DNA of 64,000 nucleotides. Origin: Escherichia coli 042 (GTDB taxonomy: Bacteria; Pseudomonadota; Gammaproteobacteria; Enterobacterales; Enterobacteriaceae). The notes beneath the pieces were generated by a model that was given only the letters and a program-made list of their open reading frames with translations, had not been told where the DNA came from and made no database searches. Each line of letters begins with the position of its first letter. The stretch's first letter is position 1. This document shows positions 16,142 through 21,845 of this stretch, piece after piece. Where the stretch lies: assembly GCF_000027125.1 (NCBI RefSeq), contig NC_017626.1; one strand, written 5' to 3'. Made by a program: the position numbers and the translations under genes.

Positions 16142-16678
16142 ATGGCCAGCAGAGGCGTAAACAAGGTTATTCTCGTTGGTAATCTGGGTCAGGACCCGGA
16201 AGTACGCTACATGCCAAATGGTGGCGCAGTTGCCAACATTACGCTGGCTACTTCCGAATCCTGGCGTGACAAAGCGACCGGCGAGATGAAAGAGCAGACT
16301 GAATGGCACCGCGTTGTGCTGTTCGGCAAACTGGCAGAAGTAGCCAGCGAATATCTGCGTAAAGGTTCTCAGGTTTATATCGAAGGTCAGCTGCGTACCC
16401 GTAAATGGACCGATCAATCCGGTCAGGATCGCTACACCACTGAAGTGGTGGTGAACGTTGGCGGCACCATGCAGATGCTGGGTGGTCGTCAGGGTGGCGG
16501 CGCTCCGGCAGGTGGTAATATCGGTGGCGGTCAGCCACAGGGCGGTTGGGGTCAGCCTCAGCAGCCGCAGGGTGGCAATCAGTTCAGCGGCGGCGCGCAG
16601 TCTCGCCCGCAGCAGTCCGCTCCGGCAGCACCGTCTAACGAGCCGCCGATGGATTTTGATGACGATATTCCGTTCTGA
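16142..16678 (+). CDS. ssb: Single-stranded DNA-binding protein SSB (178 aa)
   Basis: Translation [67 protein letters not shown]..., Gly/Gln-rich linker and acidic tail DFDDDIPF. Confidence 0.97.
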
Positions 16679-16741
16679 TTTGTCATTAAAACAATAGGTT
16701 ATATTGTTTTAAGGTGGATGATTAAAGCATCTGCCAGCCGT

Positions 16742-16772
16742 AAAAAAGAAGCCTCCGTTTTGGAGGCTTCTA
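16742..16772. terminator. Bidirectional terminator between convergent ssb and yjcB
   Basis: A-run, hairpin gaagcctcc-gttt-tggaggcttc. Confidence 0.65.
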
Positions 16773-16776
16773 CATA

Positions 16777-17058
16777 TCAAGTCAAAATCATTGGCCATTG
16801 TGGCGGTGTCTGATTCATCTCTTCTATCATCACCGACTCGATGTTGTGCCAGATGGCGGTGATATCCGCCATTGTGATGCCAAGCAACCCCATTGCGAAC
16901 CAGCAGGCAGAAACCACGCCCAGACCGCTGCTGATCACTGCAAGCCCGACATAATCAGACCGACGAAAACGGATGTTGAGTGTGCTGGCCAGAAACATCA
17001 TTACGGCACTAAGAAGTTGCCAGCGAAGAAGAACCACGCCAGTGGTGAGGGTAGCCAT
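16777..17058 (-). CDS. yjcB: Small inner-membrane protein YjcB (93 aa)
   Basis: Translation MATLTTGVVLLRWQLLSAVMMFLASTLNIRFRRSDYVGLAVISSGLGVV...; ATG (cat) at 17056..17058. Confidence 0.75.
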   Translation of the reverse strand: MATLTTGVVLLRWQLLSAVMMFLASTLNIRFRRSDYVGLAVISSGLGVVSACWFAMGLLGITMADITAIWHNIESVMIEEMNQTPPQWPMILT

Positions 17059-17487
17059 CAAACAATTCCTCTGAAAAGAGCCGATGCCTCGGACAGCGCG
17101 GCGTTGTTCACGGGAGGCGTGATACAATCTGGCTATCGCGGGGCTTGCAGAACACAAAAAAGAAACACTCTGTTTGTTTCATTAATTTTGTGAACTATAT
17201 CACAATTGATTGTTTGTTAGCCAGATTAGGCCGTGACTTTTATTGCCGTACAGATTATGTGTTTTTTCAGTGGCATTAAGGGGATATCTTCCCACCGCCT
17301 CTGCATTCCTGTAGGAAATTAGTTTTGAATATCAATGAATTATTTTTATTCAGGTGACGATTAAAAAGGTATCAATTTCAAATCAGGCAAAAGTGCTATT
17401 TATACCGTAAGATTTATCTAAAGACGTCGGTGCCCAGGGTTTTCACCTTGCAATGGCCGGGTATAAACAGGCAGGAAATTGATAGCA

Positions 17488-19071
17488 ATGAGTCATCGTG
17501 CACGACACCAATTACTGGCGTTGCCGGGCATTATCTTTTTAGTTCTCTTTCCCATCATTCTGTCGCTATGGATTGCCTTCCTTTGGGCAAAATCAGAAGT
17601 GAATAGCCAGCTCCAAACTTTTGCTCAGCTGGCGCTGGATAAATCCGAGCTGGTCATTCGCCAGGCAGATTTAGTGAGCGATGCAGCAGAACGCTATCAG
17701 GGGCAAGTTTGCACTCCAGCCCATCAAAAGCGAATGTTGAATATTATTCGTGGCTATCTTTATATTAATGAATTGATCTATGCCCGTGATAACCATTTTT
17801 TATGCTCATCGCTGATAGCGCCTGTAAACGGCTATACGATTGCACCGGCCGATTATAAGCGTGAACCTAACGTTTCTATCTATTATTACCGCGATACGCC
17901 TTTTTTCTCTGGCTATAAAATGACCTATATGCAGCGGAGAAATTATGTGGCGGTTATCAACCCTCTCTTCTGGAGTGAAGTGATGTCCGATGATCCGACA
18001 TTGCAATGGGGTGTGTATGATACGGTGACAAAAACCTTTTTCTCGTTAAGCAACGAGGCCTCGGCAGCAACGTTTTCTCCGCTGATTCATTTGAATGATT
18101 TAACCGTACAAAGAAATGGCTATTTATATGCGACAGTTTATTCGACAAAACGCCCAATTGCAGCCATTGTTGCGACTTCATATCAACGTCTTATAGCGCA
18201 TTTTTATAATCATCTTATTTTTGCATTACCCGCCGGTATTTTGGGGAGTCTTGTTCTGTTATTACTCTGGCTACGTATTCGACAAAACTATTTGTCTCCC
18301 AAACGCAAATTGCAACGCGCCCTCGAAAAACATCAACTTTGCCTTTATTACCAGCCAATAATCGATATCAAAACAGAAAAATGTATCGGAGCTGAAGCAT
18401 TGTTACGTTGGCCTGGTGAGCAGGGGCAAGTAATGAATCCGGCAGAGTTTATTCCGCTGGCAGAAAAGGAGGGGATGATCGAACAGATAACTGATTATGT
18501 TATTGATAATGTCTTCCGCGATCTGGGCGTGTACCTGGCAACACATGTCGATCGCTATGTTTCTATTAACCTGTCGGCCTCCGATTTTCATACGTCACGG
18601 TTGATAGCGCGAACCAATCAGAAAACAGAGCAATACGCGGTGCGTCCACAGCAAATTAAATTTGAAGTGACTGAACATGCATTTCTTGATGTCGACAAAA
18701 TGACACCAATTATTCTGGCTTTCCGCCAGGCTGGTTACGAAGTGGCAATTGATGATTTTGGTATTGGCTACTCTAACTTGCATAACCTTAAATCATTGAA
18801 TGTCGATATTTTGAAAATCGATAAATCGTTTGTTGAGACGCTGACCACCCATAAAACCAGTCATTTGATTGCGGAACACATCATCGAGCTGGCGCACAGT
18901 CTGGGGTTAAAAACGATCGCTGAAGGCGTCGAAACTGAGGAGCAGGTTAACTGGCTGCGCAAACGCGGCGTGCGCTATTGCCAGGGATGGTTCTTTGCGA
19001 AGGCGATGCCGCCGCAGGTGTTTATGCAATGGATGGAGCAATTACCCGCGCGGGGGTTAACGCGCGGGTAA
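17488..19071 (+). CDS. pdeC: c-di-GMP phosphodiesterase PdeC (CSS sensor domain plus EAL domain)
   Basis: N-terminal TM segments, periplasmic domain, C-terminal EAL domain ([24 protein letters not shown]); start taken at ATG 17488, alternatively TTG 17479. Confidence 0.85.
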
Positions 19072-19076
19072 TAAAA

Positions 19077-19400
19077 CTACAGGCGGTGGCGATAATCGCT
19101 GGGAGTGCGATCAAACTGCCGACGGAAAACGCGGGAGAAGGTCTGCTGCGAGACATAACCCAGGTCCATTGCGATATCAAAAATCGGACGCTCGGTGGTG
19201 CGTAACTCAACGGCGGCCAGTAACAGGCGGCGTTGGCGAATGTAATCACCAAGTGTCTGATGCGTCACCGTGCGGAACATCCGCTGTAAGTACCACTTTG
19301 AATAGCCTGATTTTTTTGCGACGACATCAATGTTAAGCGGCTGGTCAATATGCTCGTCAATCCATGCGATAAGATCCTGAATAATTTTCTGATGGGACAT
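19077..19400 (-). CDS. soxS: AraC-family superoxide-response activator SoxS (107 aa)
   Basis: Translation MSHQKIIQDLIAWIDEHIDQPLNIDVVAKKSGYSKWYLQRMFRTV... Confidence 0.95.
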   Translation of the reverse strand: MSHQKIIQDLIAWIDEHIDQPLNIDVVAKKSGYSKWYLQRMFRTVTHQTLGDYIRQRRLLLAAVELRTTERPIFDIAMDLGYVSQQTFSRVFRRQFDRTPSDYRHRL

Positions 19401-19456
19401 AAATCTGCCTCTTTTCAGTGTTCAGTTCGTTAATTCATCTGTTGGGGAGTATAATT

Positions 19457-19474
19457 CCTCAAGTTAACTTGAGG
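19457..19474. promoter_or_regulatory. SoxR operator within the soxS promoter
   Basis: Perfect palindrome CCTCAAGTTAACTTGAGG in the soxS-soxR divergent region. Confidence 0.7.
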
Positions 19475-19485
19475 TAAAGCGATTT

Positions 19486-19950
19486 ATGGAAAAGAAATTA
19501 CCCCGCATTAAAGCGCTGCTAACCCCCGGCGAAGTGGCAAAACGCAGCGGTGTGGCGGTATCGGCGCTGCATTTCTATGAAAGCAAAGGGTTGATTACCA
19601 GTGTCCGTAATAGCGGCAATCAGCGCCGATATAAACGTGATGTGTTGCGATATGTCGCAATCATCAAAATTGCTCAGCGTATTGGCATTCCGCTGGCGAC
19701 CATTCGTGAAGCATTTGGCGTGTTGCCCGAAGGGCATACATTAAGTGCGAAAGAGTGGAAACAGCTTTCGTCCCAATGGCGAGAAGAGTTGGATCGGCGC
19801 ATTCATACCTTAGTGGCGCTGCGTGACGAACTGGACGGATGTATTGGTTGTGGCTGCCTTTCGCGCAGTGATTGCCCATTGCGTAACCCGGGCGACCGTT
19901 TAGGAGAAGAAGGCACAGGCGCACGCTTGCTGGAAGATGAACAAAACTAA
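19486..19950 (+). CDS. soxR: MerR-family redox-sensing regulator SoxR, [2Fe-2S] (154 aa)
   Basis: Translation [49 protein letters not shown]...; C-terminal [14 protein letters not shown] cluster. Confidence 0.95.
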
Positions 19951-20083
19951 AGCGCCACAAGGGCGCTTTAGTTTGTTTTCCGGTCTTTGTCTTTCTCTCT
20001 ATCCCGCTGGTACACAGGAGGGTTTCCCCCGACGTCAACACACCTCATTCGAGCACGTGGTGGAGGTTCCGGTTGGTGTTGAT
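19944..20083 (-). ncRNA. ryjA: Putative small RNA RyjA; position inferred from K-12 synteny, not from a diagnostic sequence
   Basis: The soxR-ghxP spacer (546 bp) matches K-12, where ryjA abuts the soxR 3' end on the opposite strand; strand and ends are from memory. Confidence 0.3.
19949..19980. terminator. Rho-independent terminator at the soxR 3' end, probably bidirectional
   Basis: Hairpin aaagcgcc-acaa-gggcgcttt followed by a T-rich run. Confidence 0.65.
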
Positions 20084-20495
20084 GCTTTAATTGTATGTCA
20101 CCGGCGTTTCTTCGCCAGTGTAAAAGTACACTTTTTAGCCGCAATATTTTTGTCATCTCAGACGATTTTTTATCGCAATCCTGAACGGTATGCGGCTCGA
20201 TAACGCTGCAATCTTGCGCATCGACGATAACGTTTGCGCATCAATTGCCTGGTTTTTCATCGTCAAGACAATAAAAGAGAAAAAAGCAGCAAACTTCGGT
20301 TGAAAAAGCCGCTATGATCGCCGGATAATCGTTTGCTTTTTTTACCACCCGTTTTGTATGCGCGGAGCTAAACGTTTGCTTTTTTGCGACGCACCAATTT
20401 GTCGCAAACCTGGAGCAGGAAGATAACGTTTCGCTGGCAGGGGATTGTCCGCCACGCATCTTGACGAAAATTAAACTCTCAGGGGATGTTTTCTT

Positions 20496-21845
20496 ATGTC
20501 TACGCCATCAGCGCGTACCGGCGGTTCACTCGACGCCTGGTTTAAAATTTCACAACGTGGAAGCACTGTCCGTCAGGAAGTGGTTGCCGGGTTAACAACG
20601 TTTCTGGCGATGGTCTACTCGGTTATCGTCGTTCCAGGCATGTTGGGTAAAGCGGGCTTCCCGCCTGCGGCAGTTTTCGTTGCGACCTGTCTGGTTGCCG
20701 GACTCGGTTCTATCGTGATGGGTCTGTGGGCTAATCTGCCGTTGGCGATTGGTTGCGCCATCTCCCTGACGGCGTTTACCGCATTCAGTCTGGTGCTGGG
20801 GCAACATATTAGCGTACCTGTCGCGCTGGGTGCCGTGTTCCTGATGGGTGTGCTGTTTACGATAATTTCTGCCACGGGTATTCGTAGCTGGATTTTGCGC
20901 AACTTGCCGCACGGTGTGGCGCACGGCACGGGGATCGGTATCGGTCTGTTCCTGCTGCTGATTGCTGCGAATGGTGTCGGTCTGGTGATTAAAAACCCGC
21001 TTGATGGTCTGCCCGTTGCGCTGGGTGATTTCGCGACCTTCCCGGTGATTATGTCACTGGTAGGTCTGGCGGTGATCATCGGCCTGGAAAAACTGAAAGT
21101 CCCTGGTGGCATTCTGCTGACCATTATCGGTATCTCAATTGTCGGTTTGATCTTCGATCCTAACGTCCATTTCTCCGGCGTTTTCGCCATGCCTTCATTG
21201 AGCGATGAAAACGGCAATTCACTGATTGGCAGCCTGGACATTATGGGCGCGCTGAATCCTGTAGTCCTGCCAAGCGTTCTGGCGCTGGTGATGACGGCAG
21301 TATTTGATGCCACCGGAACTATCCGCGCCGTCGCCGGTCAGGCGAACCTGCTGGATAAAGACGGGCAGATCATCGACGGCGGTAAAGCACTGACCACTGA
21401 CTCCATGAGCAGCGTTTTCTCTGGCCTGGTGGGTGCAGCTCCGGCAGCGGTATACATCGAGTCTGCGGCGGGTACGGCGGCGGGCGGTAAAACCGGGTTG
21501 ACGGCTATCACCGTTGGCGTGCTGTTCCTGCTGATTCTGTTCCTCTCTCCGCTCTCTTACCTCGTTCCGGGGTATGCAACGGCTCCGGCGCTGATGTACG
21601 TTGGCCTGCTGATGCTGAGTAACGTGGCGAAAATCGACTTTGCTGATTTTGTTGATGCGATGGCGGGTCTGGTTACGGCGGTATTCATCGTGCTGACCTG
21701 TAACATCGTAACAGGCATCATGATCGGCTTCGCGACTCTGGTGATTGGTCGTCTGGTTTCCGGCGAATGGCGCAAGTTGAACATCGGTACGGTCGTTATC
21801 GCCGTGGCGCTGGTGACCTTCTATGCGGGTGGCTGGGCTATCTAA
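20496..21845 (+). CDS. ghxP: Guanine/hypoxanthine permease GhxP (NCS2 family, 449 aa)
   Basis: Translation [50 protein letters not shown]...; polytopic membrane protein. Confidence 0.9.

What the first reader, a model, noticed from the sequence alone, without database searches (positions are those of the whole stretch)
19071..19077. pdeC and soxS converge with stop codons 5 bp apart
Seen in sequence: the pdeC stop ends at 19071 and the soxS stop begins at 19077, with no room for a terminator between them. The 3' ends of the two transcripts must overlap, which allows antisense interference between a c-di-GMP phosphodiesterase and the superoxide-response activator.
Basis: inference. Interest (0 to 1): 0.2.

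Follow-up and report, generated by a model that had tools for sequence, protein, structure and literature searches.

The report
soxS terminator hairpin inside pdeC's end
The two E. coli genes pdeC and soxS do end 5 bases apart. This is an ordinary, already catalogued tail-to-tail arrangement, in which the hairpin that most likely ends the soxS message sits inside the last codons of pdeC.

Summary
Observation confirmed. The pdeC stop is TAA at 19069-19071 (+), the soxS stop is TAG at 19077-19079 (-), and 5 bp lie between them.

This spacing is a rare strain variant. K-12 and most E. coli have CAA-TAA at the pdeC end and a 2-bp gap.

The abutment is family-wide. In 66 of 67 enterobacterial species with pdeC next to soxS, the stops are at most 15 bp apart. 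In 26 of them the coding sequences overlap, by 16 nt in the Klebsiella group.

"No room for a terminator" is true of the gap only. A GC-rich hairpin (19041-19072) starts 4 nt after the soxS stop, inside pdeC's last codons.
- It shows compensatory changes across Escherichia, Salmonella and Citrobacter.
- Its G·U pairs work only in the soxS-sense RNA.
- It persists where pdeC has been deleted.
- It has no canonical U-tract.

It is therefore most likely the soxS 3'-end element, and soxS mRNA must run about 40 nt or more into pdeC.

Transcript overlap at this pair is already published: pdeC-soxS is in the ExcludonFinder 2025 table. About 75% of convergent E. coli operons overlap in the same way.

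Antisense regulation is untested. Klebsiella data show that yjcC is co-induced with soxS and depends on SoxRS, which is the opposite of exclusion.

Low interest; already known in kind.

The parts
17488..19071 (+). pdeC (yjcC) coding sequence: 527 codons plus TAA. This is one codon shorter than K-12 PdeC, because CAA (Gln528) is TAA here.
19072..19076 (.). 5-bp gap 'taaaa' between the two stop codons. Base 19072 is already the last base of the hairpin stem.
19077..19400 (-). soxS coding sequence, 107 aa, stop TAG at 19079-19077.
19041..19072 (-). GC-rich hairpin. Arms 19041-19052 and 19061-19072 (12 bp, perfect), loop 19053-19060. It starts 4 nt after the soxS stop in the soxS-sense RNA and covers pdeC's last 9 sense codons, its stop and one further base. 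Proposed soxS 3'-end hairpin (weak terminator and/or 3' stabiliser).
   Evidence: dG -23 to -26 kcal/mol, z -4.4 and -6.7; covariation. G·U asymmetry favouring the soxS sense; retained after pdeC deletion.
19028..19040 (-). Tail after the hairpin in the soxS sense (UGCUCCAUCCAUU), where a hairpin-dependent soxS 3' end would be expected. It is not a canonical U-tract.
   Evidence: inference
18881..19040 (-). C-rich, G-poor untranslated stretch of any soxS read-through RNA (antisense to pdeC). C/G is 1.5-1.7, which is rut-like, so it is a candidate for Rho-dependent back-up termination.
   Evidence: inference
19073..19400 (+). Path of pdeC read-through, antisense to soxS. There is no U-tract after the hairpin, and the RNA is G-rich (C/G 0.59-1.0), so it would be a poor Rho substrate.
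   Evidence: inference

Best explanation
pdeC and soxS form a compact tail-to-tail gene pair. The element that forms the soxS 3' end is a GC-rich hairpin lodged inside the last codons of pdeC.

Seen directly in the sequence:
- The stops are 5 bp apart, and 2 bp apart in most E. coli.
- The hairpin begins 4 nt after the soxS stop.

Shown by comparison:
- The hairpin is conserved as a structure in the Escherichia-Salmonella-Citrobacter clade.
- It is optimised on the soxS-sense RNA.
- It is kept when pdeC is lost.
- It shapes the otherwise poorly conserved PdeC tail at the nucleotide level.

Inferred:
- RNA polymerase transcribing soxS pauses or terminates weakly at this hairpin, since there is no strong U-tract.
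- Read-through RNA is untranslated and C-rich, so Rho probably stops it, and exonucleases trim it back to the hairpin.
- Mature soxS mRNA therefore ends about 40-50 nt inside pdeC.
- pdeC transcription has no terminator of its own. Its stop codon lies in the 3' arm of the hairpin, and no U-tract follows. It probably runs on antisense to soxS, or is halted by collision with converging polymerases, as at overlapping bidirectional terminators.

The resulting 3' overlap is a structural consequence of gene packing, typical of convergent E. coli operons. Any antisense cross-talk is at most a secondary, unproven effect.
For: - Geometry.
- Hairpin stability against shuffles: z = -4.4 (+ strand) and -6.7 (- strand).
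- Covariation across 23 sequences: 83.5% of cells paired against 30-48% in slid controls. Six pairs change on both sides, for example G-C to A-U within Escherichia (L003). The covariation score is 0.299 against at most 0.136 in slid controls.
- Strand asymmetry: 52 G·U cells are valid only in the soxS-sense RNA, against 12 A·C cells valid only in the pdeC sense; in the core the counts are 38 and 3. Mean dG is -19.7 against -14.3 kcal/mol, and 20 of 23 sequences are more stable in the soxS sense.
- PdeC tail: 1 of 12 codons is amino-acid invariant against 52 of 87 upstream. Third-position entropy is nevertheless lower, 0.72 against 0.94.
- Lineages without pdeC keep the hairpin. Escherichia sp. 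L002 keeps it with 95.8% identity over the aligned 142 nt, next to a deletion equal to window ~17299-19008. S. arizonae L005 and Intestinirhabdus L006 keep it with more U-rich tails, GUUUGUUGU and AGCCUUUUCA.
- The soxS read-through RNA is C-rich, with C/G 1.7.
- Transcript overlap at pdeC-soxS is listed from at least 50% of 58 MG1655 RNA-seq sets.
- Overlap is general for convergent operons.
- A hairpin-plus-collision model exists for convergent pairs.
Against: - No mapped 3' end for soxS or pdeC was found. The Term-seq supplement text that is held (Adams 2021) lists no 3' end at the junction, but soxS was not induced in those conditions and the stored file may be cut.
- The tail after the hairpin fails the U-tract criterion in E. 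coli, so intrinsic termination may be inefficient or absent.
- The hairpin is not conserved at this position in the Enterobacter and Klebsiella clades, which have equally tight or overlapping gene ends.
- The covariation sequences are phylogenetically related. The structure was also derived from one of them, which inflates the percentage of paired cells.
Confidence: 0.7

Rival explanations
1. Regulatory excludon. The overlapping 3' ends let induced soxS transcription repress pdeC, or the reverse. The means would be polymerase collision, RNase III cleavage of the RNA duplex, or production of non-stop pdeC mRNA. This would couple the superoxide response to c-di-GMP signalling.
For: - The overlap is unavoidable and is listed as a convergent excludon in MG1655.
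- The tail-to-tail abutment is conserved in 66 of 67 genomes.
- Both genes are redox-related: PdeC activity is redox-controlled (PMC5897775), and Klebsiella YjcC affects oxidative-stress survival.
- The pdeC stop codon lies inside the overlap, so truncation there would give non-stop mRNA (inference).
Against: - No expression data show reciprocal behaviour.
- In Klebsiella, yjcC mRNA and a yjcC promoter fusion rise with paraquat, and yjcC expression falls in soxRS mutants. That is co-induction, not exclusion.
- If the hairpin ends soxS RNA, only about 40 nt overlap. Both RNAs also fold this stretch on themselves, which disfavours duplex formation.
- 75% of convergent operons overlap without known function.
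- Lineages that lost pdeC keep the hairpin, so the hairpin serves soxS and not a pairwise switch.
Confidence: 0.12
2. Overlapping bidirectional terminator. The same hairpin ends both transcripts. Each polymerase pauses at the stem-loop, and head-on plus trailing collisions release it, as in the Ju/Wang model. This would give two sharp 3' ends flanking the hairpin.
For: - The pair is convergent, with a stem-loop at the junction and no canonical U-tract on either strand.
- In this strain the hairpin is equally stable on both strands: -22.6 kcal/mol in the pdeC sense and -21.1 in the soxS sense.
- The model is described for hundreds of E. coli genes.
Against: - Across the clade the hairpin is optimised for the soxS-sense RNA only. 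In K-12 the pdeC-sense stem has an A·C mismatch.
- The pdeC stop codon lies in the 3' arm, so a terminating ribosome would melt the hairpin.
- Collision-driven termination needs both genes to be transcribed actively. pdeC is described as sigma-S dependent (PMC3720812 citing Sommerfeldt 2009; PMC5897775). Low pdeC expression is from my own knowledge.
- The pair was not checked in the SEnd-seq list, because that paper is not held.
Confidence: 0.15
3. No functional element. The hairpin is a by-product of PdeC tail codons, and the tight spacing is neutral genome compaction.
For: - Tight or overlapping ends occur with quite different sequences in other genera.
- No hairpin is conserved at this position in Enterobacter or Klebsiella.
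Against: - Compensatory double changes and strand-specific G·U usage.
- Amino acids in the tail vary while stem nucleotides are kept.
- The hairpin is retained after pdeC deletion.
Confidence: 0.03

Closest known systems
Convergent excludons catalogued by ExcludonFinder (NAR 2025, PMC12288877); pdeC-soxS is itself an entry
   Same: Neighbouring convergent genes whose RNA-seq-defined transcripts overlap. The pair is listed among the 165 convergent excludons of E. coli MG1655.
   Different: The listing rests on coverage overlap only. No reciprocal expression or RNase III dependence has been shown for this pair. With a 2-5 bp gap, almost any 3' UTR scores as overlap.
Overlapping bidirectional terminators at convergent gene pairs (Ju et al. 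2019; Wang et al., bioRxiv 10.1101/2022.10.23.513370), e.g. ynaJ-uspE
   Same: A stem-loop lies in the region shared by two convergent transcription units. There is no canonical intrinsic-terminator tail. The transcripts overlap by roughly the length of the hairpin.
   Different: Here the hairpin lies wholly within one gene's coding sequence rather than in an intergenic region. Comparative data indicate selection on one strand only (soxS sense). No 3' ends are mapped.
Canonical intrinsic (Rho-independent) terminators
   Same: A GC-rich 8-12 bp stem a few nt after a stop codon. The Salmonella arizonae orthologue has a proper U-rich tail.
   Different: In E. coli the tail is UGCUCCAU (or UAAUUGCU after the 8-bp core), which is below the usual U-tract criterion. 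The element is also inside a convergent ORF.
soxR / SraL (RyjA) tail-to-tail overlap in the same locus
   Same: A second convergent pair 870 bp away. The sRNA gene sraL (19943-20083, -) overlaps the last 8 nt of soxR (ends 19950), and its terminator region also gives a weak, sub-threshold Rfam match on the opposite strand (23.7 bits, E = 0.028).
   Different: One partner is a non-coding RNA with a canonical terminator, and it is annotated and known.
Classical convergent overlapping transcription units (ilvA-ilvY; cited in Conway 2014, PMC4161252)
   Same: Convergent transcripts that terminate within each other's 3' regions.
   Different: Different genes. Those cases were mapped experimentally.

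Membership tests
Convergent excludon | Adjacent genes on opposite strands, tail to tail | tested here: met
Convergent excludon | Transcripts of the two genes overlap | tested here: met
   Published RNA-seq listing for MG1655. The geometry also forces about 40 nt of overlap if soxS RNA includes the hairpin. No RNA data exist for this strain.
Convergent excludon | Mutually exclusive or antagonistic expression caused by the overlap (transcriptional interference or RNase III) | not testable with these tools
   No data for E. coli were found. Klebsiella shows co-induction and SoxRS dependence of yjcC, which argues against it.
Overlapping bidirectional terminator (Ju/Wang) | Stem-loop encoded in the region shared by the convergent units | tested here: met
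Overlapping bidirectional terminator (Ju/Wang) | Does not resemble a canonical intrinsic terminator | tested here: met
   The terminator scan finds nothing at the junction on either strand. Tail U counts are 2-3 of 8.
Overlapping bidirectional terminator (Ju/Wang) | Hairpin forms and acts on both transcripts | tested here: inconclusive
   It is stable on both strands in this strain. Across 23 relatives it is favoured in the soxS sense: 52 against 12 strand-specific pairs, and dG -19.7 against -14.3.
Overlapping bidirectional terminator (Ju/Wang) | Sharp 3' ends of both transcripts flanking the stem-loop; Rho-independent | not testable with these tools
   The SEnd-seq paper is not held. The Term-seq supplement has no entry at the junction.
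Canonical intrinsic terminator of soxS | GC-rich hairpin shortly after the stop codon | tested here: met
   12-bp stem with an 8 G-C core, 4 nt after the soxS stop
Canonical intrinsic terminator of soxS | U-tract (at least 5 U in 8) immediately 3' of the stem | tested here: not met
   the window has 2 of 8 after the full stem and 4 of 8 after the GC core. The criterion is met in S. arizonae L005 (6 of 8).

The most novel reading that the evidence does not exclude
The conserved abutment or overlap of the pdeC and soxS 3' ends is a true regulatory device. Strong soxS induction sends polymerases and antisense RNA across the last ~40 nt of pdeC, including its stop codon. This truncates or destabilises pdeC mRNA, giving non-stop messages or RNase III cleavage. 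c-di-GMP degradation by PdeC would then be transiently reduced during superoxide stress, independently of SoxS protein acting at promoters.
Probability: 0.1. Interest if true: 0.45.

Novelty: already known. Interest (0 to 1): 0.12.

Why it matters
It matters little beyond annotation. The gene order and spacing are in every E. coli annotation, and the transcript overlap is already tabulated.

The modest added value is threefold:
- The soxS 3'-end hairpin can be placed inside the pdeC coding sequence.
- Selection acts on it in the soxS-sense RNA.
- That selection, rather than protein function, explains the nucleotide conservation of the PdeC tail.

There is also a practical point. C-terminal tagging, deletion or recoding of pdeC removes or alters the soxS 3' end and could change soxS expression. 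Non-strand-specific assays of pdeC can also pick up soxS read-through.

Tried and rejected
- The consensus terminator and promoter scan of 18500-19700 found nothing at the junction. It also missed the known soxS and soxR promoters, so it is insensitive.
- The Rfam scan of 16500-21000 found no family at the junction, only sraL at the soxR end.
- The Term-seq supplement of Adams 2021 has no 3' end at K-12 42769xx-42772xx, only 4277382(-) at the soxS start.
- Supplements of Dar & Sorek 2018, Conway 2014 and ExcludonFinder are not held. The SMRT-Cappable-seq supplements have no soxS or yjcC entry.
- Ju et al. 2019, Wu & Weiss 1991, Amabile-Cuevas & Demple 1991 and Lybecker 2014 are not held.
- Literature searches for a soxS terminator or antisense RNA found nothing specific.
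- A conserved hairpin at the same position was looked for in the Enterobacter and Klebsiella clades. Only heterogeneous, long-loop local folds 18-70 nt downstream turned up, and they were not pursued.
- REP element identity for the hairpin was rejected by eye. REP-like sequences do follow soxS in Pseudocitrobacter (L034, L043).
- Loci from the search for related loci were not visible to run_python. This was worked around through alignment files.

Full report
**Observation**

The window carries the E. coli ssb-yjcB-pdeC-soxS-soxR-ghxP region. The pdeC ORF ends with TAA at 19069-19071 on the + strand. The soxS ORF occupies 19077-19400 on the - strand, and its TAG stop reads 'cta' at 19077-19079. 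Five bases ('taaaa', 19072-19076) separate the stops.

5,419 of 5,426 complete E. coli genomes hold most of the 801-bp query around the junction (at least 80% of it), and the listed RefSeq records annotate it pdeC | soxS | soxR. PGAP annotates the same 5-bp gap in strains GF43 and EC6868.

**The exact spacing is a minor strain variant**

K-12 MG1655 has pdeC 4275471-4277057 and soxS 4277060-4277383, a gap of 2 bp. The alignment shows K-12 ...GGG CAA TAA AA TTA... against the window's ...GGG TAA TAA AA CTA.... In this strain Gln528 has therefore become a stop, and PdeC is one residue shorter.

The window's 60-mer across the junction is exact in only 2 of 5,426 genomes. The K-12 version is exact in 1,942. 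Strains 7/2 and EC42405 also have the 2-bp gap.

**Is the gap more than chance?**

Locally it is the tightest convergent junction. The nine convergent pairs in the window-equivalent region of strain GF43 have gaps of 5, 34, 34, 41, 78, 97, 153, 165 and 501 bp.

The abutment is also conserved. I fetched 80 soxS loci from one genome per species and located both stops in each. Of 67 sequences (including the window and K-12) with pdeC downstream, 66 have the stops at most 15 bp apart.
- +2 bp in 19 (Escherichia, Citrobacter).
- +4 to +7 bp in 15: the window (+5) plus Enterobacter, Raoultella/Enterobacter sp. and Kosakonia-type species.
- A 4-nt overlap in 9.
- A 16-nt coding overlap in 15 (Klebsiella, Raoultella, Trabulsiella, Yokenella, Pluralibacter). 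There soxS ends ...QISA* and pdeC ends ...QAEI* on the same DNA.
- A 13-nt overlap in Salmonella diarizonae.
- Only one Enterobacter sp. has 56 bp.

**What sits at the junction**

The gap is empty, but a perfect 12-bp inverted repeat spans the end of pdeC: ATTACCCGCGCG (19041-19052) and CGCGCGGGTAAT (19061-19072), with an 8-nt loop. It folds at about -23 to -26 kcal/mol. It is far more stable than dinucleotide shuffles, with z = -4.4 on the + strand and -6.7 on the - strand.

In the soxS-sense RNA the hairpin starts 4 nt after the stop codon. In the pdeC-sense RNA the stop codon lies in its 3' arm. Neither strand has a canonical U-tract after it, and the consensus scan reports no terminator at the junction. 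No Rfam family matches there.

**Which transcript uses the hairpin?**

In 23 sequences from Escherichia, Salmonella, Citrobacter and Intestinirhabdus, the region after the soxS stop aligns without gaps. For the 14-pair helix:
- 83.5% of cells form standard pairs, against 30-48% when partners are slid by 1-3 columns.
- Six pairs show changes on both sides, for example U-A to C-G, G-C to A-U within Escherichia, and U-A to G-C.
- The covariation score is 0.299, against at most 0.136 in the slid controls.

Strand-specific pairs are decisive. G·U pairs, which work only in the soxS-sense RNA, fill 52 cells. A·C cells, which would be G·U only in the pdeC sense, number 12. In the core the counts are 38 and 3. 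Mean folding energy is -19.7 kcal/mol in the soxS sense and -14.3 in the pdeC sense, and 20 of 23 sequences favour the soxS sense.

The PdeC tail it encodes is poorly conserved as protein: 1 of 12 codons is invariant, against 52 of 87 upstream. Its third-codon positions are nevertheless less variable, with entropy 0.72 against 0.94.

Lineages that lost pdeC keep the hairpin.
- Escherichia sp. MOD1-EC7003 (L002) has a deletion equivalent to window ~17299-19008 and retains the last ~63 nt of pdeC.
- Salmonella arizonae (L005) keeps the hairpin with a U-rich tail, GUUUGUUGU.
- Intestinirhabdus (L006) keeps it followed by AGCCUUUUCA.

The hairpin is therefore best read as the soxS 3'-end element, housed inside pdeC.

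**Likely mechanism** (inferred unless a call is cited)

1. soxS transcription reaches the hairpin about 45 nt after its stop. Without a good U-tract, termination there is probably partial.
2. The read-through RNA is untranslated and C-rich (C/G 1.5-1.7 over 160 nt). This suits Rho loading, after which exonucleases would trim back to the hairpin.
3. Either way the soxS mRNA covers about 40 nt or more of pdeC coding sequence.
4. pdeC has no terminator of its own. A terminating ribosome would melt the hairpin, no U-tract follows, and the downstream RNA is G-rich (C/G 0.59-1.0).
5. pdeC transcription therefore probably runs antisense into soxS, or stops by collision with converging polymerases, as in the Ju/Wang model of overlapping bidirectional terminators.

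No mapped 3' ends could be retrieved. The Term-seq supplement text that is held lists nothing at the junction, but soxS was not induced in those experiments.

**Comparison with what is known**

- The pair pdeC-soxS is explicitly listed among the 165 convergent excludons of MG1655, each found in at least half of 58 RNA-seq data sets (PMC12288877). The paper does not discuss the pair.
- Conway et al. found that 276 of 370 convergent E. coli operons give complementary 3' ends, overlapping by 286 nt on average (PMC4161252). Overlap is therefore the rule.
- The regulatory reading is untested, and the available data point the other way. In Klebsiella pneumoniae, yjcC mRNA and a yjcC promoter fusion are paraquat-inducible, and yjcC expression falls in soxRS mutants (PMC3720812).
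- A MarA ChIP-seq site reported between yjcB and yjcC in ETEC (PMC5684230) is present exactly at window 17232-17246. This offers a protein-level route for SoxS-family control of pdeC.

**Verdict**

The inference that transcripts overlap is right, but it is already published and is generic. The phrase 'no room for a terminator' overlooks a conserved hairpin inside pdeC that serves soxS. Antisense interference remains speculative, at about 10%.

Novelty: already known in kind and as an instance. The only small addition is the strand-resolved comparative evidence that places the soxS 3' hairpin within the pdeC reading frame.

Noticed in passing
window 19943-20083 (-), soxR 19486-19950 (+): The Hfq-binding sRNA gene sraL/ryjA (Rfam RF01408, 153 bits) converges on soxR and overlaps its last 8 nt. 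Its terminator region (19939-19974) also gives a weak, sub-threshold match on the + strand (23.7 bits against a gathering score of 39; E = 0.028). Both soxR and soxS therefore end in tail-to-tail overlaps.
   Followed up: partly
window 17232-17246 (-): Exact copy of the marbox GCAATAAAAGTCACG, reported as a MarA ChIP-seq site between yjcB and yjcC in ETEC H10407 (PMC5684230). It lies about 240 nt upstream of the pdeC start. This is a possible direct route for MarA/SoxS/Rob control of pdeC or yjcB.
   Followed up: partly
window 19069: This strain has T where K-12 has C (CAA Gln528 to TAA). The change shortens PdeC by one residue. In the pdeC-sense RNA it turns an A·C mismatch into A-U, giving a perfect 12-bp stem on both strands. 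The window's exact junction 60-mer, which also carries two other differences from K-12, is found in only 2 of 5,426 complete E. coli genomes; how many genomes carry the TAA itself was not counted.
   Followed up: yes
L058 (K. pneumoniae) and 14 other loci, about 3305-3325: In the Klebsiella, Raoultella, Trabulsiella, Yokenella and Pluralibacter group, the soxS and pdeC coding sequences overlap by 16 nt on opposite strands. soxS ends ...QISA* and pdeC ends ...QAEI* (HAEI* in K. pneumoniae). Both C-terminal peptides are conserved, so this is a small dual-coding segment.
   Followed up: partly
window 19399 (-) (K-12 4277382): Adams et al. 2021 Term-seq lists a strong RNA 3' end on the soxS strand at the second base of the soxS start codon. 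This implies a short RNA derived from the soxS 5' UTR, or premature termination or processing at the start of the ORF.
   Followed up: no
L002 (Escherichia sp. MOD1-EC7003); equivalent to window ~17299-19008: Nearly the whole pdeC gene and part of its upstream region are deleted. The last ~63 nt with the hairpin, and the marbox-containing yjcB side, are kept. pdeC is also absent next to soxS in S. arizonae, Intestinirhabdus, Kluyvera, Pseudocitrobacter and some Kosakonia.
   Followed up: partly
L034, L043 (Pseudocitrobacter), just downstream of soxS: Where pdeC is absent, soxS is followed by a REP-like palindrome, GCCGGATG...CATCCGGCCTAC, instead of the Escherichia-type hairpin.
   Followed up: no
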